The notes under the pieces are model-generated. The model ran no database searches. It was not told the DNA's origin and worked only from the letters and a program-made list of their open reading frames with translations. DNA of 64,000 bases from a virus (taxonomy: Duplodnaviria; Caudoviricetes): positions 40,004 to 104,003 of IMG/VR virus record IMGVR_UViG_3300033073_001045, one strand, 5' to 3'. Each line of letters begins with the position of its first letter. Within the stretch, counting starts at the first letter, position 1. The position numbers were made by a program, and so were the translations under genes. This document shows, piece after piece, positions 26,650-40,873 of the stretch.

Positions 26650-27299
26650 TATAGAAGTGGTATCCAGTGCTGCTGCGGTGCGTTAGCCTCAATTAAGCTT
26701 TTTAGTGGCATTATGTCATATGCAATTGTTACTCTAGGACCTTCCCAGTCCCAATCTCCCATTGCATGCGGGTGGCCCATTTCAGAAACAATCATTCTAT
26801 TGTTTTTATTATGGTTTTCAACCTGCTTATCAAATACTTGATAGTATGTAATGGAAGGCTCTGCATTTACAGAATAGTAACCGTGAAAATAGGGGGCATA
26901 AGGGCCACCGTGATCATGCCAATCAAGCTTGCCAGAATGATTGTAATTAATATTAAACCAGCCCTGTACCATATACTTTTGTTCTTCAAAATTGACTTCA
27001 TAATATTCACATGCTTCCTTAATCATGTCTGATAGAGATTTATATAGTTTATATATTCCATCATGATAAAACTGAAATACATTATACTCACGCCATTTTA
27101 TTGTAGATACACTTGATGACGATAGCCAAGCGTCTTTTTGATTTACTGGAGTGATTCCTTTAAGGGTAAGATTTTCCATATTAGAATATTGAGTCTGTAA
27201 AAATGTTGCAAGATCACCTAAATCGTTATCTAGATACCTTTCAAAAAATTTATGATCTTTGCCGCTTGGTTTATTCAGCATCATCGGATTGTAATCCAT
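26649..27299 (-). CDS. Putative 2OG-Fe(II)/cupin oxygenase
   Basis: GWFN, WHDH, FHGYYSV, GHPH, RVTIAYD; start at 27299 has an AGGAG RBS. Confidence 0.65.
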   Translation of the reverse strand: MDYNPMMLNKPSGKDHKFFERYLDNDLGDLATFLQTQYSNMENLTLKGITPVNQKDAWLSSSSVSTIKWREYNVFQFYHDGIYKLYKSLSDMIKEACEYYEVNFEEQKYMVQGWFNINYNHSGKLDWHDHGGPYAPYFHGYYSVNAEPSITYYQVFDKQVENHNKNNRMIVSEMGHPHAMGDWDWEGPRVTIAYDIMPLKSLIEANAPQQHWIPLL

Positions 27300-28056
27300 C
27301 AGATACTCCTTTTCTATAATTTTTCCTTTGCCATATATAATTTTTATAATATGCAAATATTGATATTCTTCTTCGCTCTTCTTTTATTTTATTTTCTTCT
27401 ATACTATGTTCTGAGTAATCAATTTCTAGGTCCCAATCATCTCTTTTAATTGGTATTATTTGAAATATTGGCGTTCCTTTAGGTATCGTACCTATAAAAT
27501 TTCTTTTTAAGAAAAAAGCAGTAAATACTGGAGTGTGCCATTTATCCGTATCAATTATCCCAGATAAGGTCGTGAATGGCAAGTCATGCCTATTCATTGG
27601 ATGGGTTACAAGAATTGAGTATCCAGGTGGGGTCTCACAGTACCAATTTACTTTCCATCCAAAATGAAGTGGATGATGTCCCGTTGGTACTGCTACGTCA
27701 ATCATATTTCTTTTGTCTATAATCATGGCTTCACCATCCCACGTTAGAGTAGGAAAGCCACTTTCATCTAAATCAACATGAACATCGTAATCAAGCTTAT
27801 ACATATAGCCAGCAGTTAGTGTGTCGAAAAATGGCATACATAGCTTTGTACCAGCTGCGCTACCATCTGTTCCTCTATCATTTATTGGATGGAGCTTTGA
27901 TATATTATTTGATTTTTGAAAACGAGAAAGTTTTCTATACCAATCTGGCAAGAACCTAATAGATGGCTCTGGTTCTGATAAATAATTATTATGCTCTGGA
28001 TCAAAGTTGGTACCAAAGGTAGCGGGTGTAAACTTAATGATTAAATTATCACTCAT
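27271..28056 (-). CDS. DUF6065-like protein
   Basis: KLCMPFFD...GY, TPPGYSILVTHP, SGIIDTD, KGTPIFQIIPIKRDDW. Confidence 0.6.
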   Translation of the reverse strand: MSDNLIIKFTPATFGTNFDPEHNNYLSEPEPSIRFLPDWYRKLSRFQKSNNISKLHPINDRGTDGSAAGTKLCMPFFDTLTAGYMYKLDYDVHVDLDESGFPTLTWDGEAMIIDKRNMIDVAVPTGHHPLHFGWKVNWYCETPPGYSILVTHPMNRHDLPFTTLSGIIDTDKWHTPVFTAFFLKRNFIGTIPKGTPIFQIIPIKRDDWDLEIDYSEHSIEENKIKEERRRISIFAYYKNYIWQRKNYRKGVSDGLQSDDAE

Positions 28057-28759
28057 TACATAGCCCATCTATTATTTCTTTTGAGGCGGTCACTTCCATT
28101 TCGTACATATATGACCCCCTTTCTATCACTCCAACAGTTTCGGTCTGCATATGTCTTTTTGATTTAGTAAAATAAAAATCAATAAATTCTGGTTCCTTTA
28201 TTCTATCATTTTCGTTAGACTTTGTAAATGACCCAGATCTTTCTATAATAAATAAAGAAGGATCCTGTATTGTAGATTTAATTTTAAATTTTACATTTTC
28301 GTCTATAACCCATGGGGTATATATTTTAAAACATCTATCTGAGATTATATTATCGTTATTAATATCATATTCATTTGGTGACGGATAAAACTGCCTCTGC
28401 CAAACTTTATCTACAGAATAGAATATTTCATTTATAGGTTGTGACTTAAATATTCCTAAGTGACCAAGTGGTGGATCTGCTATTTGAACTAAGATGTCTG
28501 CATAATTATAATACTCTAATATAGCCTCTGTGTCGGAAATTCTTTTTACCGAAGGCTTGATAGAAAAAAATGATGCATAAAGATTTACTGGTTTTAATAT
28601 ACTTGATGAATATTGACTACTGTACTTTACTTGATGCCAGTCTGCCCATTTTGGAAACATATTTGAATACGCCATAATCTCTGCAAATGTCATTGTACCC
28701 ATCTTAGACCATGACTCAGACTCATATGGTGTCTTTAATATATTCTTCTTAGTTTTCAT
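28049..28759 (-). CDS. Hypothetical protein in the modification cluster
   Basis: Overlapping start/stop with both neighbours; no confident motif. Confidence 0.55.
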   Translation of the reverse strand: MKTKKNILKTPYESESWSKMGTMTFAEIMAYSNMFPKWADWHQVKYSSQYSSSILKPVNLYASFFSIKPSVKRISDTEAILEYYNYADILVQIADPPLGHLGIFKSQPINEIFYSVDKVWQRQFYPSPNEYDINNDNIISDRCFKIYTPWVIDENVKFKIKSTIQDPSLFIIERSGSFTKSNENDRIKEPEFIDFYFTKSKRHMQTETVGVIERGSYMYEMEVTASKEIIDGLCNE

Positions 28760-29472
28760 TTAAATGTTTTCTTAAACCACTTTTTTGTTCTATATCCATT
28801 TTGAAAAACAGATCTTACTGAAAGTTGACTTGCTCTATTTTGAAGATCAGAATCTCTATCTTTATTTATTTCACTTTCCCAGTCGTCACGTTTAAAAGGT
28901 ATTACTTGAACAATTGGTGTGCCTTGTTTTATGACACCCTTAAAGCCCTTCTCAACAAAAAATGATAGGTATCCGTCAGAAGGATATGTATCTGTATCTA
29001 TTAGTCCAGGAATAGCTTTTATAGGACTATAGTCTGCATGCATTGGTGATATAAAAAGAGAACTATACCCATCCTCTGTTTTTGCAAGCCACATTGGGTG
29101 GATTCTTAATACGTCATTATGAAAATATGGAGGTATAGGGTATTCAGATATTTGTTCTTTTAAATGATGTGCTAATAAAAATTTTTGAAATTCCATGACG
29201 TCATTTGCAACTTCAAATTTAACCCTATCTCCAGTTGCATCTATATTCATATCCATTGGACAAAGTAAATAATAACCAGCGGCCATGGAGTCAAATACCG
29301 CTTGACACTTTTTTACAGTAAGCAGCATGTTGCCATTATAAACATTATTATCATTATTTAAATAGCTTTCTTGTTTTTTCCACCATTCTGGAATATGCTT
29401 TTGAATTGGTATAGGCTTTGGAAATACCTCTGCTAAAAATCTATACTTGGGAATAAACTCTATTTTACTCAT
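28756..29472 (-). CDS. DUF6065-like protein (paralog of 27271-28056)
   Basis: TVKKCQAVFD...GY, GYSSLFISP, PGLIDTD, QGTPIVQVIPFKRDDW. Confidence 0.6.
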   Translation of the reverse strand: MSKIEFIPKYRFLAEVFPKPIPIQKHIPEWWKKQESYLNNDNNVYNGNMLLTVKKCQAVFDSMAAGYYLLCPMDMNIDATGDRVKFEVANDVMEFQKFLLAHHLKEQISEYPIPPYFHNDVLRIHPMWLAKTEDGYSSLFISPMHADYSPIKAIPGLIDTDTYPSDGYLSFFVEKGFKGVIKQGTPIVQVIPFKRDDWESEINKDRDSDLQNRASQLSVRSVFQNGYRTKKWFKKTFK

Positions 29473-30038
29473 ATAACTGGAATCCATTTCTGATAATATT
29501 GTCTATGTAAATACTCTAATGGAGATACATTTATATATACTGCCTCAAAATCATTACTTATATTATTAAACATTGCTTTTTGAGATGAGTGAAGTATCAT
29601 CAACAATCCAGGCTCTAACAATACTTCTTCTCCATTTATAAATACTGTGTCTTTGTCAGAAGAAATTACATATAGCCCCCAAAATGTTGTTCTAAAGCTT
29701 GGTGACATATCTAGTTCTACCTGAAGTGGCAGTGCCTTTTTGTCGAGAATTCGGGCATATAGATAGGGAAAACTTCTGTCAAAATTTATATCAAATTCTT
29801 TAAATGTCTCTTTTATTGAAAAACAAACCTCTTTATATATAGAATATATTTCTTTGCTATACATACCAAAAAAATTAAATGTTTTATGATCTACAAGTGA
29901 TACACGCTTGGCTTTTTTTGCAACATTTTTACCAAATCCATTACTAATATCCACAACGTGTTCAAACATGGAATCTACCATTTCGTTGTAATTATGCTTT
30001 AAAAAAGCATTATCAATTACACTAATTTTTCTTATCAT
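29469..30038 (-). CDS. Degenerate cupin/oxygenase-like protein
   Basis: FNFFG, FWGLYV and C-terminal QKWIPV echo the 25169/26649 paralogs (QSWVPL, QHWIPL), but the His ligands are missing. Confidence 0.4.
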   Translation of the reverse strand: MIRKISVIDNAFLKHNYNEMVDSMFEHVVDISNGFGKNVAKKAKRVSLVDHKTFNFFGMYSKEIYSIYKEVCFSIKETFKEFDINFDRSFPYLYARILDKKALPLQVELDMSPSFRTTFWGLYVISSDKDTVFINGEEVLLEPGLLMILHSSQKAMFNNISNDFEAVYINVSPLEYLHRQYYQKWIPVI

Positions 30039-30657
30039 CTGGCTCCCAAATGCTAATTGAATGCCATGCTGCTGGCATTATAGGGTCTTTATATGGGGCA
30101 TGCTCTGACTCCAAAAGAACTTGTGGCTTTACCCCACCCATTATTTTATCTAATTCTTCAGATTTTGACAAGTCTATTCTTTTCATAAATGATATAAGTT
30201 TAGTCATTTTCATTTGTAGATCAAAACCAGCTTGTGTATGGGCCCCACCCTGCCTTACCAAAACATTGTAATAAAACATAAACATTGAGTAGCCTAATAT
30301 AGCTAAAGAAGAATTTATTCTTTTTCTTCTTTTATCTGGTACAGTATAAAATCTATCACCAAATGCAATATGGCAGTCTTTCTTTTTATCATATTGTGCA
30401 AATATTATTGAAGCCCAGGAGTCTGGATACTCATTATTAATGAAGTTAGAAAATACTGCCGTTCCAGGTTTATGGTTTGGTGTAGAATAAACACACTCTA
30501 TTGCTCTTGAACCATATCTATCATTAAGTATTGTCCATTGAATCCAAGAGCCAGAAAGGTAATCTGGGTACTTTCTAAAAGTTGGGAATATATGTCCCTT
30601 GTACCAGATTACCCTTCTAAACCCATACGCCAATATCTGCTTGATATTGTTTAGCAT
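30022..30657 (-). CDS. GNAT-like hypothetical protein
   Basis: FYTVPDKRRKRINSSL resembles GNAT motif A; HTQAG downstream. Confidence 0.35.
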   Translation of the reverse strand: MLNNIKQILAYGFRRVIWYKGHIFPTFRKYPDYLSGSWIQWTILNDRYGSRAIECVYSTPNHKPGTAVFSNFINNEYPDSWASIIFAQYDKKKDCHIAFGDRFYTVPDKRRKRINSSLAILGYSMFMFYYNVLVRQGGAHTQAGFDLQMKMTKLISFMKRIDLSKSEELDKIMGGVKPQVLLESEHAPYKDPIMPAAWHSISIWEPDDKKN

Positions 30658-30660
30658 TAA

Positions 30661-32019
30661 TTATGCTGGAGGATTGTTAGGATCAACAGGATTTTCCTGC
30701 TGAGATAGCTTCCATTGCTGATATAGAGTTTCAAGTGAAGCTGCTAGTGTTTGTGCAGAGTCAGTGATAACTCCATCTGCATTAAGGTCTAATGGCTGAG
30801 AGTCATGTACCAATGCATTATCTGTAAAGAATACGTCGTAAGGTTCTGTGTTAATTGTAATAACTAGTTCCTTGCCTTCTGAAACTCTAAGTTCTACTAT
30901 TGGCTGCCAATCTGCAAATGTAGGTGAATATACTTGATCTGATTCAAGTACTTCTGTAACATTAACAAACTTTGCAATTCCATCTCTTTTTATTAGAATA
31001 TAGTGAGATACTGAGTATTTATTTCCATTAATAACAATAACCTTATCAACAATATGAGCAGCAAGTGCTGTAATTGTTGTCTCATACTGTGTATTTATTA
31101 CTGGATTTTCTGATGACCACCCAGCAAAATATTCTGCTAGTGGAGTTCCGCTAGATAAATCTAGGCCATCAATATTAGCTGAATAAAGAACATCACCGAC
31201 AGAAAGGTTATGTGCTAAAACTAATCCTTCTGGAACCTTTGAGCTAATAAGTGTATCTGCACCAATTGATTTAACTGGTGTGAATCCAAATGGAGTAAAT
31301 CCGAATGGTGTAAATCCGAATGGCGTAAAACCAAACGGTGTAAATCCGAATGGCGTAAAGCCAAACGGTGTGAATCCAAACGGTGTAAATCCAAATGGAG
31401 CAAAACCAAATGGAACAAAGCTGAATGCTGTTGTTACGTTTACAGACGAAGCTGAAGTACCAGAATTACCATTAGCATTTGTTGCATAAACATTATATGT
31501 TTGTTGTGTGCCCATTTCCTGTCCAACGCTTATAGATGTAGCTGATGTATCTCCAGCTTTACCATCTGAAGCAGTCCAGTGATAATTTGTAATTGCTTTT
31601 CCACCGCTTGCTGGGGCTGACCATGAAACAGAGTCTGTTCCAGCTGAGGGAGAAGATGCACTTGGTGCATTTGGTGTTGCAGGAACGGTTGTCGCTGTAA
31701 CAGCACCTGATGCACTTGAAGCAACTGAGTTACCAGATGCATTTGAAGCAACTACTGTAAATGTATAACTTGTATCTGAAAGCAAACCAGTTACTGTAAG
31801 TGGTGATGAAGATCCAGTTGCTGTGAATCCGCCTGGTGACGATGTTACTGTATAAGATGTAGCAGCTGGTGAGTTAGCTGGCAAGCTAAATGATACAGTT
31901 ACTGCACCATTATTATATGGTCTTCCAGTTCCAACATCTGATACAGATGTAATTGATGGTTGTTTTGGCTCAAGAAAATCATTTGCTCCTTGGCTCATTC
32001 TACCTGCTTGTTTTGACAT
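30661..32019 (-). CDS. FN3-domain virion protein with 9 PFGF(T/A) repeats and a C-terminal Hint domain
   Basis: Two FN3 repeats (SYTVTSSPGG...YTFTVVASNASG; VSWSAPASGG...YNVYATNANG), the repeat tract, then SIGADTLI...SVSH...DVFFTDNALVHD/S. Confidence 0.85.
   Translation of the reverse strand: MSKQAGRMSQGANDFLEPKQPSITSVSDVGTGRPYNNGAVTVSFSLPANSPAATSYTVTSSPGGFTATGSSSPLTVTGLLSDTSYTFTVVASNASGNSVASSASGAVTATTVPATPNAPSASSPSAGTDSVSWSAPASGGKAITNYHWTASDGKAGDTSATSISVGQEMGTQQTYNVYATNANGNSGTSASSVNVTTAFSFVPFGFAPFGFTPFGFTPFGFTPFGFTPFGFTPFGFTPFGFTPFGFTPVKSIGADTLISSKVPEGLVLAHNLSVGDVLYSANIDGLDLSSGTPLAEYFAGWSSENPVINTQYETTITALAAHIVDKVIVINGNKYSVSHYILIKRDGIAKFVNVTEVLESDQVYSPTFADWQPIVELRVSEGKELVITINTEPYDVFFTDNALVHDSQPLDLNADGVITDSAQTLAASLETLYQQWKLSQQENPVDPNNPPA
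31279..31413 (-). repeat. 15-bp coding tandem repeat x9 (PFGFA + 8 PFGFT)
   Basis: 135 bp; synonymous third-position variation between units. Confidence 0.97.
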
Positions 32020-32043
32020 ATTGTAGTCTCCCTTTAATTTCTA

Positions 32044-33897
32044 TTAAGCTGATAGGTCTCCAAAGACCAACCATCCGCTTGCTGTTTTCATTGCTGTTGC
32101 AACTGAGTTTGTAGTTCTTAATTTTAGACCTGGGGTTCCAACTACACTGTTAGTTGAAGCAAACTGTGCACCTGTACCTGACTCTTGATAAAAGTCAATT
32201 GATTGACCTGTTGAATATCCTGTAGCAGGCAAAGTAATTGTTACTGCTCCAGTAAGTGGAACAAACTTATCTTGTTCTCCTGATGCAAGTGTTGCAGAGG
32301 ATGAGATTGCTGTTGCAAAAGCGGTTATAGATGGAACTCCAGCTTTTACCTGTGTGCCATCTGAGAAAACAATACCAGATGATGGTGTAACTGTTGTTGC
32401 CTCAAATGCTCCAACCTTTAGAGCATCCATTGAGCCCTGTGCAAAATTAACTGTTGTTGTTGGTTCATCTGTTACACCCTTAAAAAGCTTCCACTTTCCA
32501 TCAGATGTATCTTTAACTAAACCTTGGTGTGCATATGTTCCATCATTATATGATGCTACAAAGCCTAGGTCTACTGAGTTTGAATTGTTTCCTTCACCTA
32601 AATAAATTACTGGATCAGCTGTTGTAAAGTTTGTTGTATTTACTGTTGTAGTTGTTCCAGATACTGTTAGGTTTCCAGATATTGTTAAATTACCAGATAG
32701 TGTTTGAGATGCAGCATCTGTTTTTACTAATTTAGTTGTATCTGCAATTCCGTGTACATTTGTTGTATCTGCTTCGTGAGCTGATAGCGCAGTAGATGCT
32801 GCAGATGTTGCTGCTGTCTGAGCATCTGATGCTTTACCATCTGCATAAGTTTTTGTTGCTAGTGCTGAAGTATCTGCAATTCCATGAACATTTGTTGTAT
32901 CTGCTTCGTGAGTAGAAACTGCATTGTCAGCATAAGATTTTGTAGCAAGTGCAGATGTATCGGCAATTCCATGTACTGAGGTTGTATCCGCAGCATGTAC
33001 TCCAAGTGCATCAGAGGCTGCAGTGATTGCTGCTGCTTCTGCATTATCTGCAGCTGTATCAGCATAAGACTTTGTAGCAAGAAGTGATGTATCTGCGATA
33101 CCATGTACTGAAGTTGTTGTTGCATTGTGTGTAGAGACTGCTCCAGTTGCAAAAGACTGAGCTGTAGTACCTACAGTATCTGCATAATTTTCAGCTGCTG
33201 TTATTGCTTCTGACTTTTTAGTATCTGCATAAGCTGCAGAAGATGTTCCTAAAGATGTAATTAGATTTTCTGCTATTCCATGCTTTGTGTCTGTGTAATT
33301 CTTAGCTGCGTTTAGAGAGTCAGCAACATCTGCATCTGTTGCAAGAACTGATGTGTCTGCAATTCCGTGTACATTTAATGACTTATCTGTATGTATTGTT
33401 AGTGCAGCAAGATCTTGTGTTTGCAAATATTCTGCATACTCTCTGCTTGCAACCACTGTTAAATCAATTTCTGATGTTGGGACTTTACCTTGTGCGTTTA
33501 GTGATGCAACGCCATTAGCAGCTCCACGATCATCCTGTGGGATATATGTAGCATCTGCTGTATTTTGTATTGCAGTTTCTCTTGCGTCTACATAAGACTT
33601 AAGTGCAATTACATTTGAGTCTACTGTAATTTCAATTGTATTTGTGCCGTCATTGTATGACTTTGTGAGTCCAGCTCCCAATGAAAGGGCATTATTAATA
33701 GCATCCTGTGAGATTTCGCCGATAGCAACATCTGAGTTGTTAGCGTATGAAAGAGCAGTCCAGGTGCTTGTTCCGTTACCAAACTTAAATAGATTTGTGT
33801 CTGTTTCAACACCCATTTCACCAGCTGCTAGAACTGGATTTGTTGTGGACCACTGTGAAGCAGTTCCTCGTCTTACTTGAATTCTTACTGTTGCCAT
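32044..33897 (-). CDS. Tail fibre-like structural protein (Mtd-N-like N-terminus, HGIADTS repeats)
   Basis: RIQVRRGTASQW...NPVLAAGEMGVETDT...KFGNG N-terminus; five VHGIADT repeats. Confidence 0.75.
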   Translation of the reverse strand: MATVRIQVRRGTASQWSTTNPVLAAGEMGVETDTNLFKFGNGTSTWTALSYANNSDVAIGEISQDAINNALSLGAGLTKSYNDGTNTIEITVDSNVIALKSYVDARETAIQNTADATYIPQDDRGAANGVASLNAQGKVPTSEIDLTVVASREYAEYLQTQDLAALTIHTDKSLNVHGIADTSVLATDADVADSLNAAKNYTDTKHGIAENLITSLGTSSAAYADTKKSEAITAAENYADTVGTTAQSFATGAVSTHNATTTSVHGIADTSLLATKSYADTAADNAEAAAITAASDALGVHAADTTSVHGIADTSALATKSYADNAVSTHEADTTNVHGIADTSALATKTYADGKASDAQTAATSAASTALSAHEADTTNVHGIADTTKLVKTDAASQTLSGNLTISGNLTVSGTTTTVNTTNFTTADPVIYLGEGNNSNSVDLGFVASYNDGTYAHQGLVKDTSDGKWKLFKGVTDEPTTTVNFAQGSMDALKVGAFEATTVTPSSGIVFSDGTQVKAGVPSITAFATAISSSATLASGEQDKFVPLTGAVTITLPATGYSTGQSIDFYQESGTGAQFASTNSVVGTPGLKLRTTNSVATAMKTASGWLVFGDLSA

Positions 33898-33939
33898 TTT
33901 ATCTCCTAGTTTTTAATTATAGCATTTATTAACTTTTAA

Positions 33940-34278
33940 TTAGGCTATTTCGCCTGAATCAAAAATCATTGATGCTTCTTCTGTTGATGGTGTGCCCCCA
34001 TCTGCGAATTTTGTGGCAGTGGTAACAACACCATTTGCCTGAACTGTATAAACTGGTTGACCATCATAATCAATAGCCAGCCCAATATCCATAAAAGATA
34101 TACCGCTTACATCTGGAATCTGTGAAACAAGAGCTATTGGCTCCCATGTTCCATTGATGTATATCTCTAATTGATTTGAGGAAGAATTAAATGCTACAGG
34201 AGTTGACCCTAGCGTTATCTGGTTGCCCTCTACTACAAGGCCATTTTTTACTCTAAAATTTTTATCTGTTGTTGCCAT
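33940..34278 (-). CDS. Small structural protein
   Basis: KNFRVKNGLVV N-terminus shared with the neighbouring fibre gene. Confidence 0.55.
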   Translation of the reverse strand: MATTDKNFRVKNGLVVEGNQITLGSTPVAFNSSSNQLEIYINGTWEPIALVSQIPDVSGISFMDIGLAIDYDGQPVYTVQANGVVTTATKFADGGTPSTEEASMIFDSGEIA

Positions 34279-34346
34279 TTAAGTTCACATATCCCCTAAT
34301 TGTTTTGGTGGGGTTTTGAAAGGACCCCAAACCTTTTATTTAATTA

Positions 34347-35594
34347 TTAGTCACCATATGACATAAGTGTTCCAGAAACAATTATCTCTGTTCCATCATT
34401 ATGTGTAGGTGATACCTTAAGTTCAATATTATTGCCGTTCATTCCAGCTGTAATATCTCCCAAAATTCCATTGGTGGTTACAATTCCATATTCTGAAATT
34501 GCAATATTATTTGAGTTGTCTCTTGTTAAAAGAATCTCAGATACCTGTGAGTTGGCTCCGTTTCTCATTCTAACTAAGAACTTAGCAGATGCACCCTTGT
34601 TGTGATTCCATGAACATGCCACAACTTCGCTACCTGTATTAGCGTAAGCATATGATGCAATTTGATCTGTCATCCAGCCAATTGAAACTTCTGTGAATTG
34701 TGTGTCTCCAGAAGTTAGGCTATTTACAGCATTATCAGTATATGTAGCTGCTGCTGTCTGTGCCGCATTAGCCTTATTAGTTGCATCTGTTGACGCTGTA
34801 GCTTCTGCTGCTGTCTGTGCAGCTGATGCGTATCCCTGTGCTGCTGTATCAAGATCTGAAATTTCTTGGTTTACATAAGTTGTATCTGCTTTAGTTGCAA
34901 CTAAATTAGCAACATCTGTTGCATAATTTGGGTTATCTGCAATTGCTGCAGCCAATTCATTAAGTGTATCAAGAAGTGCTGGTGCTCCAGAAACAAGCGC
35001 TGCGACTTCCTGGTCTGTGTATGCATTAGCATCTGAAATTGCTTCTGATTTAGCAGTTGCAATTGCTGAATTACGTGCTGAGACTTCATTTGTAATTGCT
35101 GTTGAAATTGCTGAGTTACGATCTGAAACTTCATCTGAAATTGCAGATGAAATTGCATTATTTCTATTTGTAACTTCTGTTGATATTAAACCATCTGCAT
35201 AATTTTCTGCATTTGACTGTGCATTATTTGCTTTAGTTGTTGCATCAGAAGCTGCAGTACTTACTGCATTGCTTGCTGCAGAATCAGCATAAGTTTGTGC
35301 ACTTGCAAGTGCTGCATTTGCTTTATTTGTAGCATCTGTTGCTGCTGCAGATTGAGCAGCTGAAGCAGATCCATATGAGTCAAAAGTATTTGCATTGACT
35401 GTGAGGTTTCCAGCACCATCTACGTTAAATACATTTGTATCAACAGATTTAACAAGAGTTGCTCCACCAACAAGGTTGAGAATATAGTTATCTCCGCCTG
35501 TTTCTGTAAGTATATTTTGGCCATTGATGGTACCTGTTGTACCTTCTACAATAAGACCTGATTTGATTCTAAAGTTTTTTACTACCGTTGCCAT
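34347..35594 (-). CDS. Fibre-like structural protein
   Basis: AATDATNKAN coiled repeats and APALLDTLNELAAAI fibre motif. Confidence 0.7.
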   Translation of the reverse strand: MATVVKNFRIKSGLIVEGTTGTINGQNILTETGGDNYILNLVGGATLVKSVDTNVFNVDGAGNLTVNANTFDSYGSASAAQSAAATDATNKANAALASAQTYADSAASNAVSTAASDATTKANNAQSNAENYADGLISTEVTNRNNAISSAISDEVSDRNSAISTAITNEVSARNSAIATAKSEAISDANAYTDQEVAALVSGAPALLDTLNELAAAIADNPNYATDVANLVATKADTTYVNQEISDLDTAAQGYASAAQTAAEATASTDATNKANAAQTAAATYTDNAVNSLTSGDTQFTEVSIGWMTDQIASYAYANTGSEVVACSWNHNKGASAKFLVRMRNGANSQVSEILLTRDNSNNIAISEYGIVTTNGILGDITAGMNGNNIELKVSPTHNDGTEIIVSGTLMSYGD

Positions 35595-35619
35595 ATTTAT
35601 GACTCCTCTTGCTACCTAT

Positions 35620-36171
35620 TTATATTTTTACAGCTGTTCTGATAAACCTTGCAGATATATCAGTACTTACTGGTGCCACTACAAGACTAATTATACCTGA
35701 ATTTTCTTCAAATGTATAACTAAATAAACTGTTATTGGTATTTGAAACAATATCTGATTCTGAAACGTGTACATTCATACCATCTTGAACTGCAGATAAT
35801 GTACATGTGTAAAATTCTGCACCTCTTGTTATCTGAAGTCTATACTGTACACTTCTCCATACATCTATTGCAAAAGAGTCAATAGATGTTGGATTTTCTA
35901 TACCATTAACAGTAAGATCGTTATTGCCATCCAGGCCAAGCAACTCTGAAATATTATCAGTATTATTTGATAAACCATCTACTAGTGTTGCTAGCTCATT
36001 AACCTTATATGTTATTGTTGAGCTATCTGATGAATTTGTTACTCCAATAACATTTTCTATTGCCTCTATAGCATCATTTACATTCTGGTGCTGCTGGGCA
36101 TGACCAGATAATGAGTCAGTTGCTTCAGGGTTTGAAAGGTTATCTTTTTCTACAGGAAATGTTGTTGTCAT
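35620..36171 (-). CDS. Structural protein
   Basis: HAQQHQNVNDAIEAIE N-terminal motif; C-terminal beta domain similar to that of 34347-35594. Confidence 0.55.
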   Translation of the reverse strand: MTTTFPVEKDNLSNPEATDSLSGHAQQHQNVNDAIEAIENVIGVTNSSDSSTITYKVNELATLVDGLSNNTDNISELLGLDGNNDLTVNGIENPTSIDSFAIDVWRSVQYRLQITRGAEFYTCTLSAVQDGMNVHVSESDIVSNTNNSLFSYTFEENSGIISLVVAPVSTDISARFIRTAVKI

Positions 36172-36218
36172 TTTCCCTCCTTGTGGTGCATCTTATATAT
36201 GTAATTATACACTACATT

Positions 36219-39053
36219 TTATTGCTGCTGTGATGATTTCCATTCTTGGTACAGTTGCTCTAATGATGTTGCCAGGCTTTGACTGCTTGAGCTTATTGCT
36301 CCTGGTGTTTGTGCATTAAACTCATGTGAGTCGTGAACAATAGCATTGTCTGTAAAAAATACATCGTACGGCTCTGTATTAATTGATATAACCAAATCCT
36401 TTGATTGTTGATGCCTGAATTCAAGAATTGGCTGCCAGGCATCGTACAAAGGAGAATAAATGCTATCTGTTTCAAGTACGTCATATACTTTTACAAACTT
36501 AACTTCATCATTTCTCTTTACTAAAATATAGTGAGAAAGTGAATATTTATTTCCATTTATAATTATAACCTCATCAACTATTCTTGCAGATAACGACACA
36601 ATAGTTGTTTCATAGTTTGTATCTATGACAGGATTTTCTGCCGACCATGATCCTAAATATGAAGAAAGCGATTGTCCAGATGTTAGGTCTAGGCCTTCTA
36701 TATTTGCTGAGTATAATACGTCTCCAACAGAAAGGTTATGTGCTAAAACTAATCCTTCTGGAACTTTAGATGCAACTAATGTATCTGCACCAATTGATTT
36801 AACTGGAGTAAATCCAAATGGTGTGAATCCAAATGGTGTAAAACCAAATGGTGTAAAACCAAATGGTGTAAAACCAAATGGTGTAAAACCAAATGGTGTA
36901 AAACCAAATGGCGGAATATAACAAGCATTTGGTATTCCAAGCAAAGAAATAATTTCTGCGCTAGATAGATTTGGATTAGATGTGGTGCCAGTTATCATAC
37001 TGTAACCAGTTCCAGTATTAGGGTAGGCACCTTGACCACCATTTGCAGTATATGCTCCATAATAGTTACCACTAGGTCCATGACACATTACGTATATATT
37101 ATATCCTGGAGCCTGATACTGATATCTATTAATACTAATTCCAGTTGGGAAACTTATATATCTTGTGTCATATGCAGTTCCAGCAATTGGTGACTGTGAA
37201 ACAATTTGTCCAGCTAACCCAGGATCTGATGTTCCAGTATTTTGATTTGTAGAAAGTGTCCAATCGCCATATGTTCCATCAGCGGTTGTTGAGCCTACAT
37301 AATTTGGCACGTACTTATAAACAACTGCTGGCTCTTGATAAATATATGAGCTAACACTAACTGTAACTGGTAGATCTGCTTGCTGCACTGAATATGTTCC
37401 AGCTGAAGGTGTTTGACTAGCAATCTTGCCAACTAATGAATTGTTTGATGTTCCAGTTCCAGCTGCATAGTAAATAACATAGTTAGTTCCATTATATGCG
37501 CTTTGAGATCCAACAAAATTTGGAATAGTTACTGAAACTGGAGGATTTACTGTAGCAGTAGCATATCCAGATGATGCTACTGGATTTGATGTTCCAGCAG
37601 AGTTTGTTGCAGTAGCAAAAGCACGATATCTTATTCCATTTTCAACATCGCTAGCATCAACAGTATATGATTGCGGTGACGTACCATTTCTTAGTTCAAC
37701 ACCATCTGAAATTGATTGTGGTACTGAACCAGCTTTAGCAATAATCTTTACATTATATGATGTAGGGTTATTCTCCCAACCACTTGTTGATGCCGTAATT
37801 GTGTCTCCAGCATATACTTCTCCAGTTGGAGACAAGAATGCTGTTCCGTTTGCTGGTATTTTATATGCAGATGTAAATACACCAGAATTTGAATCCCAAT
37901 AATATTCTTGTGTTGGATTTTCAAGTGTGATGGTTGACGGTGTTCCTTGGAATCCACTTGAGGTTCCATATATTCTTACTTTCCATGGACCAGACTCAAC
38001 TCCTGCTTGATAGCAAGTTATATAGCTTGATGTGGAATTTATTCCTGTCATTGATACTGGACCAAAATCTGATCCGTCTGGCCATAATGAATATATCTCA
38101 TATCTTGTTGGAGTTATATTATTTAGTGACCATTCAATTTTACCCGCATATTGATCATATAGTCCAGTTGCAGTTATTGTTGCAGTTACAGATGGCTTAT
38201 TTGGAAGAAGATCAAGGATATCTTTGCTTGATCCAGTTCCAGTAAATGTAAAGTTTTGATTTGCTGTAGCCCAACGCCACCACTCTAATGCTTGACTTGT
38301 ATTATTAAATGGTTGAACAGATATGCCAAGGGTTGTCTTGCCAAATAAAAATGTAGGGTCTGGCGATCCAAAATCTTTGTCATAAAGATTATTTGTTTTT
38401 CCATTTATTGTTATTGTTTCCGCTGGTATTCCTGGACCCTGATATGTTACATAATATCCATCAGCACCTTCTGAAACATCCCAGAAAAATCTTATCTTTC
38501 CATTTAAATATCCGCTTCCATCTTGTTGAACAAAAGCTGTTGAATTTGCTATTCTTTGTGGTGGGAGTGGAGAGCTATCAATAGATGCGTGTACTGGTTC
38601 ACTATCTGTTCCTCCAGTAACTGCAATAACTGTACATTTAATAAAATATCCAACCTCATCTTTTGTTAATATATAACTACTAGATGTTGCACCAGAAATA
38701 TCTAGCCATGTTGTTATTGTTTTATATCTTGTTGGTACATATGAGCTTCCGTTTTCTTGAAACTCCTCAACTCTTGAATTATATCCCTTTGACCATTGAT
38801 ATTTATATGAGTCTGGCTCAATTGCCCACGTTCCATTACTTACTGATACTGTTTGTCCAGCTCCATATCCAAATGATCCAGCAGACCAAGTAAATTCTGG
38901 AGCAGTAATATTTGATTGTCCTGAGTAAAAGTCAACCCATGCTGAGCCATTCCACATTAAAGCTTTTTTAGCAGACTTCCATGAGCCACCGTCAAAAATG
39001 TTTAATTTTTTAGGACTATTCCAGCTTGAACCATCAAATATTTTAAATGACAT
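36219..39053 (-). CDS. Ig-like/PASTA-like multidomain virion protein with 7 PFGFT repeats and a C-terminal Hint domain
   Basis: Ig-like SNGTW...YKYQW...GATSSSY domain; two VP(N)xVG...G(K/Q)IxSQxPxAG units; PFGFT x7; SIGADTLV...SLSH...DVFFTDNAIVHD/S. Confidence 0.82.
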   Translation of the reverse strand: MSFKIFDGSSWNSPKKLNIFDGGSWKSAKKALMWNGSAWVDFYSGQSNITAPEFTWSAGSFGYGAGQTVSVSNGTWAIEPDSYKYQWSKGYNSRVEEFQENGSSYVPTRYKTITTWLDISGATSSSYILTKDEVGYFIKCTVIAVTGGTDSEPVHASIDSSPLPPQRIANSTAFVQQDGSGYLNGKIRFFWDVSEGADGYYVTYQGPGIPAETITINGKTNNLYDKDFGSPDPTFLFGKTTLGISVQPFNNTSQALEWWRWATANQNFTFTGTGSSKDILDLLPNKPSVTATITATGLYDQYAGKIEWSLNNITPTRYEIYSLWPDGSDFGPVSMTGINSTSSYITCYQAGVESGPWKVRIYGTSSGFQGTPSTITLENPTQEYYWDSNSGVFTSAYKIPANGTAFLSPTGEVYAGDTITASTSGWENNPTSYNVKIIAKAGSVPQSISDGVELRNGTSPQSYTVDASDVENGIRYRAFATATNSAGTSNPVASSGYATATVNPPVSVTIPNFVGSQSAYNGTNYVIYYAAGTGTSNNSLVGKIASQTPSAGTYSVQQADLPVTVSVSSYIYQEPAVVYKYVPNYVGSTTADGTYGDWTLSTNQNTGTSDPGLAGQIVSQSPIAGTAYDTRYISFPTGISINRYQYQAPGYNIYVMCHGPSGNYYGAYTANGGQGAYPNTGTGYSMITGTTSNPNLSSAEIISLLGIPNACYIPPFGFTPFGFTPFGFTPFGFTPFGFTPFGFTPFGFTPVKSIGADTLVASKVPEGLVLAHNLSVGDVLYSANIEGLDLTSGQSLSSYLGSWSAENPVIDTNYETTIVSLSARIVDEVIIINGNKYSLSHYILVKRNDEVKFVKVYDVLETDSIYSPLYDAWQPILEFRHQQSKDLVISINTEPYDVFFTDNAIVHDSHEFNAQTPGAISSSSQSLATSLEQLYQEWKSSQQQ
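36807..36911 (-). repeat. 15-bp coding tandem repeat x7 (PFGFT)
   Basis: 105 bp, mostly identical units. Confidence 0.97.
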
Positions 39054-39061
39054 TGTATCTC

Positions 39062-40873
39062 CTAGTACTGAATATAAATATCTCCGACGGATACACCTGT
39101 AGGAGGAGTAGCGCTTGTACCGTAAGATATGGTGTTGCCAGTTATTGCTGTATTAGAATTTGAATATCCGCTAGAAATTGTTGCGGTGCCACCCAAAGAA
39201 ACTTGTGTTCCATTTATGGTTATATAGCTATTCTCTAAATATGAATTTGAAATGCTAGAAACCAGTCTAACAGATCCGTTTGCTGTTTCTAATATTCCAG
39301 AACCAAGATCTGGTAAAGCAATAGTTCCAGTAAATACAGGATTATTTTTTGTAGCATATGTATTTTCTGCATCTGAAATAGATAAATAAGTTGCAACTGC
39401 ATTATCTACACTTAGGAAAGTTTCTGCAAGTGTTGCCTCTTTAAGATATGTAATATCTGCTTCTGATTTAGTTAAATATGAAGCTGTAGCATCTGTTAAA
39501 GACAGATATGTTGTTGCAGCATCAGACTCCTTTAAATATCCTACAATTTCAGCTCCAGTAGGTATAGTTACAACTCCAGTAAATATAGGATCATGTTTTG
39601 GAGCCTTTAATGCTACATTAGAAATAGTTTCATATGTTGTGGCTGCCAAAGATGAGTCTAGCTTTAATCCAATTGCTGTATTAATTGCAGACAAACCATC
39701 TTGATTATTTGAAAGAGCTGTAGCTAGTTCTGCAAGAGTATTTAGTGTTCCAGGTGCTGATGCAACAAGAGCTGCAACTGCATCATCTGCATATTGTTTA
39801 GTAGCAATATTTGTTGGTATAACTGAATCTGCAAGTTTACCGCTTGAATCCAATCCAGCAAAACCATTTATTGCATTTCTGTCTGCTTCTAAAACATAAT
39901 CAGACAATGTGTTATTTAAATTAGATGTTAGTTCTGTTCTTAAATCATCAACTGCTCCAAGGGCAACTTGAAGTACTTGCCCTCTTGCTGAATTTGTTGC
40001 GGCAACCGCTCTAGCATTTGTAAAATAGAGATTTGTTCCTTCTGGAAGATCTGTAGTAGTATGAATACCTATATTTATATTTGCAACAGCTGAAGCTATA
40101 TCAGACGCAACCGCTGTTCTTGCTCTTGTGTCTGTAAAATACAGCCTTGATCCTTCTGATATATTTGAAGTTGTTAGGCCTCCAACCGCTGCTGTAATTG
40201 CAGAGGATCTGGCATTTGCTTCTGATTGAATTGCAGCATTTCTTAGAATAACTTCGTTTGAAATGGCTGATTCAATTGCGGCAGTAAGAGCTGTAGATAT
40301 ATCAAGATCTTTATCTGTTGCGTCTGTTGCTGCCGCTAAAATAGCTTCTGATTTAGCTGCATTTGCTTTTGCTGATGCATCTGTAGCTGCAGCAGATATT
40401 GCTTCTGCTTTTGCATTATTTGCCTTTGTAGTAGCATCTGTAGCTGCAGCAGATATTGCTTCTGCTTTTGCAATAGAAATATTTTCTTCTGCATTTGCTT
40501 CAGCTAACGAAAAGGCATTTGTAATGTTATCTGCTACTGCTGCTTCTGCTCTAGCATCTGTAAAATAAAGATTTGAGCCTTCTCTAATTCCTGTAGTTGA
40601 AACTGCATTTAAAGCTGCAGCAAAATCTGCAGAAATTGATATTTCATCTGGCAACTGAGACACATCAATTTTACCAACAGAATTTAGTGTAGCAATTCCA
40701 TTTGCCTCTCCAGGCTTTAGTGCATACGAAGTAATATCGTTCCAATGTAGACCATTACCAATTTTAAACTTTAGAGTATCTGTTTCTATACCAATTTCTC
40801 CATTAAGCAAAATTGGATTATTTAGAGTCCAGTTTATTGCCAGGTCTCTTCTAAATTGTATTCTTATTGACAT
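39062..40873 (-). CDS. Tail fibre-like structural protein (Mtd-N-like N-terminus)
   Basis: RIQFRRD...NPILLNGEIGIETDT; three EGxxLYFT repeats; APGTLNTLAELA; YLxxxxAxxTY repeats. Confidence 0.75.
   Translation of the reverse strand: MSIRIQFRRDLAINWTLNNPILLNGEIGIETDTLKFKIGNGLHWNDITSYALKPGEANGIATLNSVGKIDVSQLPDEISISADFAAALNAVSTTGIREGSNLYFTDARAEAAVADNITNAFSLAEANAEENISIAKAEAISAAATDATTKANNAKAEAISAAATDASAKANAAKSEAILAAATDATDKDLDISTALTAAIESAISNEVILRNAAIQSEANARSSAITAAVGGLTTSNISEGSRLYFTDTRARTAVASDIASAVANINIGIHTTTDLPEGTNLYFTNARAVAATNSARGQVLQVALGAVDDLRTELTSNLNNTLSDYVLEADRNAINGFAGLDSSGKLADSVIPTNIATKQYADDAVAALVASAPGTLNTLAELATALSNNQDGLSAINTAIGLKLDSSLAATTYETISNVALKAPKHDPIFTGVVTIPTGAEIVGYLKESDAATTYLSLTDATASYLTKSEADITYLKEATLAETFLSVDNAVATYLSISDAENTYATKNNPVFTGTIALPDLGSGILETANGSVRLVSSISNSYLENSYITINGTQVSLGGTATISSGYSNSNTAITGNTISYGTSATPPTGVSVGDIYIQY

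What the first reader, a model, noticed from the sequence alone, without database searches (positions are those of the whole stretch)
30661..39053. Two unrelated virion proteins share a portable (PFGFT)n - Ser/Asp Hint - helical tail module
Seen: an FN3 protein (30661-32019) and an Ig/PASTA protein (36219-39053) both end in (PFGFT)9 or 7, then PVK, then a 156-aa domain (30802-31269; 36330-36797), then a short tail with SLE(T/Q)LYQ(Q/E)WK. The domain has Hint blocks: N-terminal SIGADT, AHNLSVGDVL, SxSH in place of TxxH, and INTEPYDVFFTDNAxVHD followed by Ser. Synonymous variation in the repeat DNA suggests selection on the peptide. Known: Hint domains autoprocess via an N-terminal Cys/Ser; terminal Asn is usual and Asp is rare; Hedgehog uses Hint plus a short C-terminal region to ligate a lipid. 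Inference: autocleavage at K|S leaves an activated ester at the end of a hydrophobic FG-like tag. This could cross-link or lipidate virion appendages, splice on the tail, or release modified peptide cores. I know of no described system with this architecture.
Basis: partly seen in the sequence, partly recalled or inferred. Interest (0 to 1): 0.85.

Follow-up and report, generated by a model that had tools for sequence, protein, structure and literature searches.

The report
Phage appendage proteins with self-processing Hint cap
Two tail-module proteins of an uncultured freshwater phage, probably of actinobacteria, each end in a phenylalanine-rich repeat followed by a genuine intein-like (Hint) self-processing domain; they belong to a large viral family for which I found no published description, and the domain most likely cuts itself off the protein.

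Summary
ORFs 30661-32019 (452 aa, two FN3 domains) and 36219-39053 (944 aa, PASTA-like) have otherwise unrelated bodies. Both end in (PFGFx)9 or (PFGFT)7, then PVK, a 156-aa domain and a 36-46 aa helical tail; the shared part is 73% identical.

The Hint reading is supported:
- A family profile hits a bacterial intein-like (BIL) domain (2LWY, E 5.5e-8) and inteins.
- An AlphaFold model (pLDDT 89) matches BIL2 of Tetrahymena, the Ssp DnaB intein, 2LWY and Hedgehog.
- Ser1 aligns with intein Cys1, and the terminal Asp with intein Asn.

The family has at least 127 clusters at 50% identity. The domain almost always sits at the extreme C-terminus, usually behind Pro/aromatic repeats of varying unit. 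Three chemotypes occur: Ser1…His-Asp-Ser/Thr, Ser1…Tyr/Phe-Asp/Asn, and Cys1…His-Asn-(x)Lys. The helical tail is confined to the nearest relatives. Natural Hint-less alleles end right after the repeat.

Best reading: a self-removing BIL-type cap on phage appendage proteins, acting by ester formation at K|S and then splicing or hydrolysis. Covalent transfer, lipidation and peptide release have no support here. This scan has met the same family on other DNA. It is a new variant of a known kind.

The parts
30661..32019 (-). Gene A: 452-aa protein, FN3-FN3 then (PFGFx)9, PVK, Hint and tail
   Evidence: ORF. Pfam fn3 at residues 37-102 (E 2.7e-8) and a PKD/FN3-like match at 141-191. More than 1600 homologues of the N-terminal 200 aa, mostly 400-460 aa, some on contigs of about 95-125 kb.
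31279..31413 (-). Gene A repeat: PFGFA plus 8 x PFGFT (residues 203-247). PVK linker at 31270-31278
   Evidence: TRF finds period 15 with 9.2 copies. All unit-to-unit DNA differences are synonymous third-position changes. Copy number is roughly 4-10 in related loci, read from the upstream sequences printed.
30802..31269 (-). Gene A Hint (BIL-type) domain, Ser251-Asp406. Ser251 is the nucleophile; Ser336-x-x-His339 is block B; Asp395 is block F; His405-Asp406 is block G
   Evidence: Profile against PDB sequences: 2LWY BIL E 5.5e-8, plus inteins. AF2 pLDDT 89.4, pTM 0.85. Foldseek: 6Y75 BIL2, 1MI8, 2LWY, 1AT0. dN/dS 0.07-0.10 against orthologues.
30664..30801 (-). Gene A tail: Ser407 (+1) and 45 further residues, with a predicted helix around SLETLYQQWK
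   Evidence: Helix at model residues 175-195, pLDDT 66-82. Consensus conserved in near relatives. dN/dS 0.12-0.15. Absent from most of the family.
36219..39053 (-). Gene B: 944-aa protein with an unrelated body (PASTA-like unit at residues 533-568, 37350-37457) and the same C-terminal cassette
   Evidence: ORF. Weak PASTA match, E 0.0022. Orthologues of 917-964 aa in loci L003-L009. PASTA is clear in other family members.
36807..36911 (-). Gene B repeat: 7 x PFGFT (residues 715-749). PVK at 36798-36806
   Evidence: TRF finds period 15, 7.2 copies, 95% matches. Five identical DNA units and two synonymous variants.
36330..36797 (-). Gene B Hint domain, Ser753-Asp908
   Evidence: Part of the 73%-identical shared stretch. 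Family HMM E 3.4e-55. dN/dS 0.19 against the gene A copy with dS 1.17, so the paralogues are old.
36222..36329 (-). Gene B tail: Ser909 (+1) and 35 further residues, with SLEQLYQEWK
32044..33897 (-). Context: fibre gene with an Mtd_N head directly upstream of gene A. A second one lies at 39062-40873 upstream of gene B
   Evidence: Pfam Mtd_N E 2.9e-15 and 4.3e-11. PHROG tail-fibre families. The same order is kept in related loci, including Hint-less ones.

Best explanation
Both genes encode appendage proteins of the tail-fibre module of a roughly 104-kb freshwater phage, probably of actinobacteria. Each carries a portable C-terminal cassette: a Pro/Phe-rich pentapeptide repeat stalk, a 156-aa mini Hint domain of the bacterial-intein-like (BIL) kind, and a short helical tail.

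Proposed mechanism:
1. The Hint domain has a full set of class-1 splicing residues: Ser1, S-x-x-H, block-F Asp, His-Asp and Ser+1.
2. After folding, Ser251 (gene A) or Ser753 (gene B) attacks the carbonyl of the preceding Lys in an N-to-O acyl shift.
3. The resulting ester is resolved within the molecule or by water. One route is transfer to Ser+1 followed by cyclisation of the terminal Asp, which splices the tail onto the repeat. The other is hydrolysis.
4. Either way the Hint domain is discarded. The mature protein ends in the aromatic repeat, with or without the tail.

The role I commit to is a self-removing cap for the distal, sticky repeat end of the appendage. This is the job that the unrelated Peptidase_S74 chaperone does on the collagen-like fibre of the same phage.

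Shown: the architecture, the fold, residue conservation, purifying selection, the family-wide layout and the existence of Hint-less alleles. Inferred: that cleavage happens, the fate of the ester, and the biological role.
For: Fold and register:
- The profile of 42 homologues hits the BIL domain 2LWY (E 5.5e-8) and several inteins. Ser1 aligns with Cys1 of gp41-1, and the terminal Asp with the terminal Asn of 2LWY and gp41-1.
- 11 of 42 members hit Pfam Intein_splicing on their own (best E 6e-9); others hit Hint_2, Hom_end_hint or PT-HINT.
- The AF2 model has pLDDT 89.4. Its best Foldseek matches are BIL2 6Y75 (E 3.5e-7, TM 0.74 on the target), Ssp DnaB intein, 2LWY (TM 0.80), and also Hedgehog 1AT0 and 6TYY.

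Catalytic residues conserved across at least 127 clusters: position 1 Ser 59 / Cys 17; block B His 114 of 123; block F Asp 110 of 125; terminal Asp 76 / Asn 43.

Selection: the domain has dN/dS 0.07-0.10 against orthologues.

A working C-terminal half in this chemotype: +1 is Ser/Thr in 35 of 41 His-Asp members, against 10 of 46 members with an aromatic or Leu penultimate residue (Fisher p 2e-9, not corrected for phylogeny).

Cap rather than body:
- The domain ends 1-9 residues before the stop in most clusters.
- 97 of 118 FN3 homologues carry it.
- About seven end right after the aromatic repeat instead. One of these (P0221) is seen on at least 4 contigs in the same place behind the Mtd_N fibre gene, with no Hint in any frame.

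Phage appendage context:
- Mtd_N fibre genes flank both genes, and an S74 collagen-like fibre lies at 22205-23266.
- A distant member lies next to a 2570-aa S74 fibre gene.
- Erwinia phage pEa_SNUABM_1 gp111, annotated 'virion structural protein', is a collagen-like protein with a C-terminal Cys1…His-Asn Hint.

Inteins ending in Asp can still cleave and splice (Amitai, Dassa and Pietrokovski, J Biol Chem 2004). BIL domains cleave or splice (Dassa et al., J Biol Chem 2004).
Against: - No processing has been observed; everything about chemistry is inferred from residues.
- The C-terminal apparatus varies across the family (His/Tyr/Phe penultimate, Asp/Asn terminal, variable +1), so splicing cannot be the family-wide function.
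- The tail is under purifying selection (dN/dS 0.12-0.15). It is modelled as a fairly confident helix in a model with pTM 0.85. It may therefore serve the Hint domain rather than the mature protein.
- A 'cap' role has no direct support, and I have no evidence on oligomeric state.
- Hint-less alleles can also be read as showing that the domain is dispensable, or that those lineages work differently.
- The Fisher test treats related clusters as independent.
Confidence: 0.55

Rival explanations
1. Covalent transfer. The Hint-made ester is not hydrolysed or spliced but passed to an outside nucleophile. Candidates are a lysine of another virion protein (as BIL2 of Tetrahymena does with ubiquitin-like domains), an amine of the host cell wall, or a lipid or sugar hydroxyl (as Hedgehog does with cholesterol). 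The appendage would then be anchored covalently.
For: - The best structural match is BIL2 of the Tetrahymena BUBL1 locus. According to PMC8616854 it forms an isopeptide bond to lysines of other proteins without ATP.
- Hedgehog Hint domains are also matched.
- Many family members carry PASTA domains, which bind peptidoglycan precursors (established for PknB-type kinases).
- In the Cys1…His-Asn chemotype a Lys stands at +1 or +2 in 26 of the 31 short C-terminal tails listed.
- The terminal Asp could serve as a general base, as Asp does in Hedgehog (recalled).
Against: - No acceptor is identified.
- Alleles that lack the Hint domain altogether sit in the same genomic slot. That is hard to square with an obligatory conjugation step.
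- The +1 Ser/Thr conserved in the window's chemotype is what splicing needs, not transfer.
- Bacteria lack sterols.
- The tail that would stand in for Hedgehog's sterol-recognition region is missing from most of the family.
Confidence: 0.2
2. Selfish element. The Hint domain is a mini-intein-like parasite without a homing endonuclease. It spreads between genes through the repeat DNA and has no role for the phage.
For: - All class-1 splicing residues are present in the window's copies.
- There are two copies in one genome.
- Hint-less alleles exist.
- Codon identity between the paralogues is raised just behind the repeat: 15 of 18 identical codons in the first 20, against about half elsewhere. 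This suggests local recombination.
Against: - It does not interrupt a conserved host site. It sits at the extreme C-terminus, and most homologues have only 1-9 residues behind it.
- The Hint-less alleles lack the tail as well, so they are not 'empty sites'.
- A useless C-terminal appendix need not splice and would decay. Yet catalytic residues are kept down to about 25-30% identity, and dN/dS is 0.07-0.10.
- The Ser1 chemotype shows a constant pairing with Pro/aromatic repeats: aromatic 0.23 and Pro 0.23 in the 40 residues before Ser1, against 0.10 and 0.08 elsewhere. This points to a joint function.
Confidence: 0.1
3. Non-catalytic tip domain. The Hint fold stays on the appendage and acts as a binding or assembly domain, without any cleavage.
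For: - C-terminal domains of phage fibres are usually the receptor-binding parts (established).
- Other family members carry a small Cys-rich domain in the same position behind the repeat (P0212, P0196).
Against: The best-conserved positions are exactly the Hint catalytic ones: the position-1 nucleophile, the block-B His, the block-F Asp and the terminal Asp/Asn. The surface between the blocks varies freely. Position 1 switches only between Ser and Cys.
Confidence: 0.1
4. Peptide-precursor reading. The repeat is a core peptide that is modified by the neighbouring enzymes and released by the Hint domain.
For: A conserved enzyme cluster lies directly downstream, with an SDR, a P4H-type 2OG oxygenase and two DUF6065-like genes.
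Against: - The repeat is fused to large folded FN3 or PASTA bodies that are themselves well conserved.
- Hint cleavage frees the repeat's C-terminal end only; nothing would cut its N-terminal side.
- The genes lie in the fibre module.
Confidence: 0.03

Closest known systems
Bacterial intein-like (BIL) domains, e.g. Clostridium thermocellum BIL (PDB 2LWY); types A and B of Amitai et al. 2003 and Dassa et al. 2004 (recalled)
   Same: - Best sequence-profile hit (E 5.5e-8) and among the best structural hits (TM 0.80 on the target).
- A mini Hint domain without an endonuclease.
- Sits in variable regions of surface-type proteins rather than in conserved enzyme sites.
- The C-terminal nucleophile is not always present.
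   Different: - Ser1 and terminal Asp instead of Cys1 and Asn in the window's chemotype.
- Placed at the very C-terminus.
- Preceded by Pro/aromatic repeats.
- Encoded by phages in the fibre module.
- No Pfam or NCBIfam model of its own.
BIL2 of the Tetrahymena thermophila BUBL1 locus (PDB 6Y75, 6TMM; PMC8616854)
   Same: Top Foldseek match (E 3.5e-7). A Hint domain that activates the C-terminus of the domain in front of it.
   Different: BIL2 lies between two ubiquitin-like domains and transfers the upstream one to a lysine. Here no acceptor is known, and the passenger is a phage appendage with a repeat stalk.
Class-1 mini-inteins (Ssp DnaB 1MI8, gp41-1 6RIZ, Pho RadA 4E2U), including inteins with a terminal Asp (Amitai et al. 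2004, recalled)
   Same: Blocks A, B, F and G align residue for residue, and Ser1, His-Asp and Ser+1 would allow splicing.
   Different: It is not inserted in a conserved site of a housekeeping protein. The 'C-extein' is 1-9 residues in most homologues. Hint-less alleles are not simple empty sites.
Hedgehog/Hog C-terminal autoprocessing domain (PDB 1AT0, 6TYY)
   Same: A C-terminal Hint that releases an N-terminal passenger through an ester. In the window's subclade a short helical region follows it.
   Different: A weaker structural match than BIL or inteins (E about 3e-4 to 2e-3). Ser instead of Cys. It has the intein-type block G (His-Asp). The helical tail is absent from most of the family. 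No sterol is available in bacteria.
Peptidase_S74 intramolecular chaperone of phage tailspikes and fibres (PF13884)
   Same: A self-cleaving C-terminal module on phage fibres, which is the role I propose here. The same phage uses S74 on its collagen-like fibre at 22205-23266.
   Different: An unrelated fold and chemistry (Ser-Lys dyad, obligate trimer). The two genes studied here give no S74 match.
Pretoxin HINT (PT-HINT, PF07591) of polymorphic toxins
   Same: 4 of 42 family members hit this Pfam model (best E 2.8e-7). It is a Hint used for autoproteolytic release in surface proteins.
   Different: PT-HINT lies in front of a C-terminal toxin that it releases. Here there is nothing, or only a short tail, behind the domain.

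Membership tests
Hint superfamily (Hedgehog/intein fold) | Hint beta-fold with pseudo-twofold symmetry | tested here: met
   AF2 model pLDDT 89.4. 42 PDB matches at E <= 0.001; all those listed are inteins, BIL or Hedgehog domains.
Hint superfamily (Hedgehog/intein fold) | Block A: Cys/Ser nucleophile as first residue | tested here: met
   Ser251 and Ser753. Position 1 is Ser 59 / Cys 17 / Trp 1 in the family. It aligns with Cys1 of gp41-1.
Hint superfamily (Hedgehog/intein fold) | Block B: Thr-x-x-His | tested here: met
   S-V-S-H and S-L-S-H in the window. Family: S 81 / T 40 at the first position and His in 114 of 123.
Intein in the strict sense | Block G His-Asn (rarely Asp/Gln) followed by a Cys/Ser/Thr +1 nucleophile | tested here: met
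   His-Asp-Ser in both copies. Within the His-Asp chemotype +1 is Ser/Thr in 35 of 41. Across the whole family this is not conserved.
Intein in the strict sense | In-frame insertion in a conserved site of a host protein, with intein-less alleles whose flanks are contiguous | tested here: not met
   The domain is C-terminal with 1-9 residues behind it in most clusters. Hint-less alleles end after the repeat and lack the tail.
Intein in the strict sense | Protein splicing demonstrated | not testable with these tools
   Needs expression and mass spectrometry.
Bacterial intein-like (BIL) domains | Hint domain nearest to BIL motifs, in variable regions of surface or secreted proteins, without a homing endonuclease | tested here: met
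   Best profile hit is 2LWY. At 156 aa there is no room for an endonuclease. The domain is fused to many unrelated bodies. I did not test type A or B motif assignment, because no BIL type profiles were available.
Hedgehog-type autoprocessing (cholesterol or other lipid transfer) | Hint followed by a conserved sterol/adduct recognition region needed for transfer | tested here: not met
   The tail is present in only 14 of about 124 clusters. Transfer itself cannot be tested here.
Peptidase_S74 intramolecular chaperone | Match to PF13884 | tested here: not met
   No match in either protein, while the neighbouring fibre at 22205-23266 matches at E 7.9e-16.

The most novel reading that the evidence does not exclude
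The Hint domain stays on the assembled virion as a loaded acyl donor. At the cell surface the ester at the end of the aromatic stalk is discharged onto an amine of the host wall, for example the peptidoglycan stem peptide or lipid II that the PASTA-type bodies of many family members would bind. Alternatively it is discharged onto a lysine of another virion protein. This would be an ATP-independent, sortase- or BUBL-like covalent anchoring step in phage adsorption or assembly.
Probability: 0.12. Interest if true: 0.9.

Novelty: new variant of a known kind. Interest (0 to 1): 0.6.

Why it matters
Hint domains are known as inteins, as Hedgehog processing domains, as BIL domains of unclear purpose and as pretoxin cutters. 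This is a large family, apparently phage-borne: no cellular copy turned up in a close-relatives scan. It has at least 127 clusters at 50% identity, and there are more than 1600 homologues of the FN3 body alone. A BIL-type Hint domain regularly ends appendage proteins and is usually paired with Pro/aromatic repeats.

If the domain removes itself, this is a second and chemically different way, beside the S74 chaperone, of maturing phage fibres. It would also give BIL domains a concrete biological setting to test.

The three natural chemotypes form a ready-made series for asking which residues decide between splicing, cleavage and transfer. They are Ser1…His-Asp-Ser, Ser1…Tyr/Phe-Asp and Cys1…His-Asn-Lys.

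Small Ser-based Hint domains that work behind a hydrophobic repeat may also be of use in protein engineering.

Tried and rejected
- Single-sequence AlphaFold gave a useless model (pLDDT 35.6). Only the model built on the 42-row alignment was used.
- Pfam, PHROGs and NCBIfam on the window's own domain give no Hint family. There is only a PHROG 'virion structural protein' match at E 1.5e-6, and a direct PDB sequence search found nothing. The Hint assignment needed a family profile.
- The search for related loci with the whole alignment failed for lack of a conserved stretch. With P0015 as query it found nothing.
- A scan of one genome per prokaryote species for close relatives found none. This method sees close relatives only, so it is weak evidence that the family is confined to phages.
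- Complex prediction with three copies of PVK-Hint-tail returned 'no answer' (score 0.00). This says nothing either way about oligomerisation.
- Laying contigs of four public runs on gene A showed near-identical pieces in aquatic, freshwater, estuary and lake metagenomes. Short-read contigs break at the repeat, so no copy-number information came from it.
- Five literature searches found nothing on C-terminal Hint domains of phage fibres (Hint domain + phage + tail fiber; bacterial intein-like + phage; Hint domain + structural protein; intein-like + tail fiber; Hint + actinophage). The phage papers I opened mention only ordinary inteins or intein-type Hint domains in terminase, RNR or helicase genes. 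The library lacks most subscription journals, so this is not proof of novelty.
- Rejected: the + strand ORFs at 31280-31489 and 36625-36921 are the reverse reading of the repeat, (NPNGV)n, not genes.
- Rejected: an 'FG-nucleoporin-like' function. The likeness is compositional only.

Full report
WHAT IS THERE

The window is the last 64 kb of a 104-kb IMG/VR virus record estimated 94% complete. Genes 30661-32019 and 36219-39053 lie on the minus strand inside a run of fibre-type genes:
- Two proteins with an Mtd_N head, at 32044-33897 and 39062-40873.
- Several Ala/Thr/Ser-rich repeat proteins.
- Further downstream, a collagen-like protein with a Peptidase_S74 end, at 22205-23266.
- The portal, protease and head genes.

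The genome carries a WhiB gene above the Pfam cut-off. Its portal is 56-57% identical to portals of 120-130 kb Streptomyces phages. Near-identical DNA occurs in freshwater, lake, estuary and wastewater metagenomes; twelve runs from seven studies hold at least half of the sampled words. The phage is therefore most likely a freshwater actinophage. This is an inference.

The two proteins share one strong, ungapped local match of 230 residues at 73% identity (E 1e-118). Their N-terminal bodies are not significantly alike. Gene A has two FN3 domains. Gene B has only a sub-threshold PASTA match, although PASTA is clear in other family members.

The shared part has the following layout:
- Nine or seven PFGF(T/A) units.
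- PVK.
- A tail of 46 or 36 residues carrying SLE(T/Q)LYQ(Q/E)WK.

The eight PFGFT units of gene A use seven different DNA spellings. All five variable sites are third codon positions and every change is silent, whereas only 24% of random single changes would be. The claim of selection on the peptide is sound. Copy number differs among related phages, roughly 4 to 10 units judged from the printed upstream sequences.

THE DOMAIN IS A HINT DOMAIN

The window's own sequence hits no Hint model. An exhaustive HMMER search found 127 cluster representatives, and a profile of 42 of them (A2) gave these results:
- It hits the solved BIL domain 2LWY (E 5.5e-8), then the Aes123 PolB1, gp41-1, Pho RadA and DnaX inteins, and BIL2 of Tetrahymena.
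- In those alignments Ser1 falls on Cys1 of gp41-1, and both share Thr at position 6. The terminal Asp falls on the terminal Asn of 2LWY and gp41-1.
- On their own, 11 of the 42 members hit Pfam Intein_splicing. Others hit Hint_2, Hom_end_hint or PT-HINT.

With this alignment AlphaFold gives pLDDT 89.4 and pTM 0.85. Foldseek finds 42 PDB matches at E <= 0.001, and all those listed are Hint-fold proteins. They are led by BIL2 (6Y75), the Ssp DnaB intein and 2LWY, with Hedgehog further down.

In the viral structure library the best matches are uncultured Caudovirales proteins with PASTA or FN3 bodies. One is already auto-named 'Hint domain containing protein'. The protein-language-model atlas likewise returns mostly viral Hint clusters.

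THE FAMILY

Conservation:
- Position 1 is Ser (59) or Cys (17).
- Block B is S/T-x-x-H, with His in 114 of 123.
- The block-F Asp is kept in 110 of 125.
- The terminal residue is Asp (76) or Asn (43).

Three chemotypes stand out:
- Ser1…His-Asp, with +1 Ser/Thr in 35 of 41 members. The window's genes belong here.
- Ser1…Tyr/Phe-Asp/Asn, with a variable +1 residue.
- Cys1…His-Asn, with +1 Ser/Thr/Cys in only 2 of 31. A Lys stands at +1 or +2 in 26 of the 31 short tails listed.

The link between a penultimate His and a +1 nucleophile is strong (Fisher p 2e-9), but it is not corrected for shared ancestry.

Position in the protein. The domain nearly always ends the protein. Most clusters have 1-9 residues behind the terminal Asp/Asn, and only 14 have 20 or more. 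So the helical tail belongs to the window's subclade only. There it is conserved and under purifying selection (dN/dS 0.12-0.15), as is the domain itself (0.07-0.10).

What lies in front of Ser1. Usually there is a low-complexity tract rich in Pro and aromatic residues, with a unit that changes from lineage to lineage: PFGFT, PFFP, GAF, PFS, GFxHYA, PYYN, PPPF. In the Ser1 chemotype the last 40 residues hold 23% aromatic and 23% Pro, against 10% and 8% in the rest of the protein. The Cys1 chemotype shows this much less.

The bodies in front are diverse: FN3, PASTA, Ig-like and Cys-rich modules, and collagen-like in Erwinia phage pEa_SNUABM_1 gp111.

Genomic setting. Several phage contigs of about 108-112 kb carry two such genes. 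A scan of one genome per prokaryote species found no close relative.

HINT-LESS ALLELES

Among 118 homologues of the FN3 body, 97 carry the Hint domain. About seven end directly after the aromatic repeat.
- One of these, P0221, is found on at least four contigs. It sits in the same slot behind the Mtd_N fibre gene, whose C-terminal part is 85% identical to the window's. The stop codon follows the repeat, and no Hint is detectable in any frame.
- Two others, P0212 and P0196, carry a small Cys-rich end instead.

An appendage that ends in the bare repeat is therefore a viable form.

HOW IT MOST LIKELY WORKS

The window's copies have every residue that class-1 splicing needs. The universal features of the family are the N-terminal nucleophile and block B. 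The conserved reaction is therefore formation of a (thio)ester at the junction with the passenger.

In the window's chemotype the kept His-Asp and +1 Ser/Thr suggest the C-terminal half also works. The ester would pass to Ser+1 and the Asp would cyclise, joining the tail to the repeat. Otherwise water resolves the ester. In both cases the Hint domain leaves and the mature protein ends in the aromatic stalk, which matches the natural Hint-less form.

I read the domain as a self-removing cap, comparable in role but not in fold to the S74 module that the same phage uses on its collagen-like fibre. My confidence is about 0.55. The fold and the catalytic competence are far more certain than the role.

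RIVALS

- Transfer of the ester to an outside nucleophile has a real precedent in BIL2, which makes an isopeptide bond to lysine (PMC8616854), and in Hedgehog. It would fit the PASTA bodies and the conserved Lys of the Cys1 chemotype. No acceptor is known, however, and Hint-less alleles argue against an obligatory step (0.2).
- A selfish mini-intein is unlikely, given the position at the extreme C-terminus, the strong purifying selection and the pairing with the repeat (0.1).
- A non-catalytic tip domain is unlikely, because the catalytic positions are the most conserved ones (0.1).
- A peptide-precursor reading has nothing for it beyond the neighbouring enzymes (0.03).

SURROUNDINGS

Directly downstream of gene A lies a tightly packed cluster at 23299-30657.
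- It includes an SDR, a P4H-type 2OG-Fe(II) oxygenase (PF13640), a second oxygenase-like gene and two DUF6065/phrog_7084 paralogues. Several genes have no family. The first gene is perhaps GNAT-like, an atlas lead only.
- The cluster is syntenic in 26-31 of 37 near loci.
- Parts of it lie within 10 kb in the more distant Tyr/Phe-Asp subgroup: the DUF6065-like genes in 29 of 36 loci and the oxygenase in 19 of 36.
- The Hint-less lineage keeps only two or three of these genes, though it still has a PF13640 gene nearby.

This cannot be told apart from shared ancestry. The oxygenase could as well act on the collagen-like fibre. It is a lead, not a finding.

EARLIER NOTES OF THIS SCAN

The same kind of protein has been reported on other DNA by this scan: FN3, Pro/aromatic tract and Hint; fibres ending in Hint; Lys-tailed Hint caps; and hydroxylase cassettes next to them. 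Other first-reader notes cover this same stretch.
- These notes agree with my reading.
- The enzyme-cluster lead came from them.
- The fold, the chemotypes, the Hint-less alleles and the selection tests were done independently here.

NOVELTY

The fold and its chemistry are known. One relative already carries an automatic 'Hint domain' label in a protein database. I found no paper on this architecture: a BIL-type Hint domain as the regular end of phage appendage proteins, usually behind Pro/aromatic repeats, in three chemotypes. I file it as a new variant of a known kind, with interest 0.6.

Noticed in passing
window 23299-30657 (-): A tightly packed 11-gene cluster lies directly downstream of gene A. 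It holds an SDR (PF00106), a P4H-type 2OG-Fe(II) oxygenase (PF13640), a second oxygenase-like gene, two DUF6065/phrog_7084 paralogues and six ORFs without a family. It is syntenic in 26-31 of 37 near loci, partly kept in a distant subgroup, and reduced in the Hint-less lineage. It may tailor the Pro-rich repeat or the collagen-like fibre.
   Followed up: partly
window 22205-23266 (-): A collagen-repeat fibre protein ends in a Peptidase_S74 self-cleaving chaperone (E 7.9e-16). The same phage thus uses two unrelated self-processing end modules on different appendages.
   Followed up: partly
family members P0073-P0127 (Cys1…His-Asn chemotype): Behind the terminal Asn a Lys stands at +1 or +2 in 26 of the 31 short tails listed, and seven proteins end in His-Asn-Lys-stop. 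This recalls the lysine-directed chemistry of BIL2.
   Followed up: partly
P0212, P0196; P0221, P0160, P0163, P0172, P0220, P0240 (homologues of gene A): Behind the aromatic repeat the end module is exchangeable. It can be a Hint domain, a small Cys-rich domain, or nothing at all.
   Followed up: partly
window 31210-31278 and 36738-36806 (first 20 codons from PVK): The two paralogues have dS about 1.2 overall, but 15 of 18 shared residues use the identical codon just behind the repeat, against about half elsewhere. Possible local gene conversion seeded by the shared repeat DNA.
   Followed up: partly
L081:2909-4351 (Erwinia phage pEa_SNUABM_1 gp111, NC_061448.1): A cultured jumbo phage has a 480-aa 'virion structural protein' with collagen-like repeats and a C-terminal Cys1…His-Asn-Thr Hint domain, next to tail and tail-fibre genes. 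It could serve as an experimental model.
   Followed up: partly
G000:C1:6285-6458 (outside the window) and window 18403-19989: A WhiB gene above the Pfam cut-off, and a portal 56-57% identical to those of Streptomyces phages, in a genome whose windows run at about 31-41% G+C. This points to a phage of low-GC aquatic actinobacteria.
   Followed up: partly
window 31280-31489 (+) and 36625-36921 (+): Open frames on the opposite strand of the repeats read (NPNGV)n. They are by-products of the repeat, not genes.
   Followed up: yes
window 2920-11067 (-): A 2715-aa ORF upstream of the head-tail genes, probably the tape measure or another giant structural protein. Not examined.
   Followed up: no
window 31225-31252: Contigs of four public short-read assemblies break at or near the repeat-Hint junction, as expected for a repeat shared by two genes. 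Copy numbers in short-read assemblies of this family should be treated with care.
   Followed up: partly
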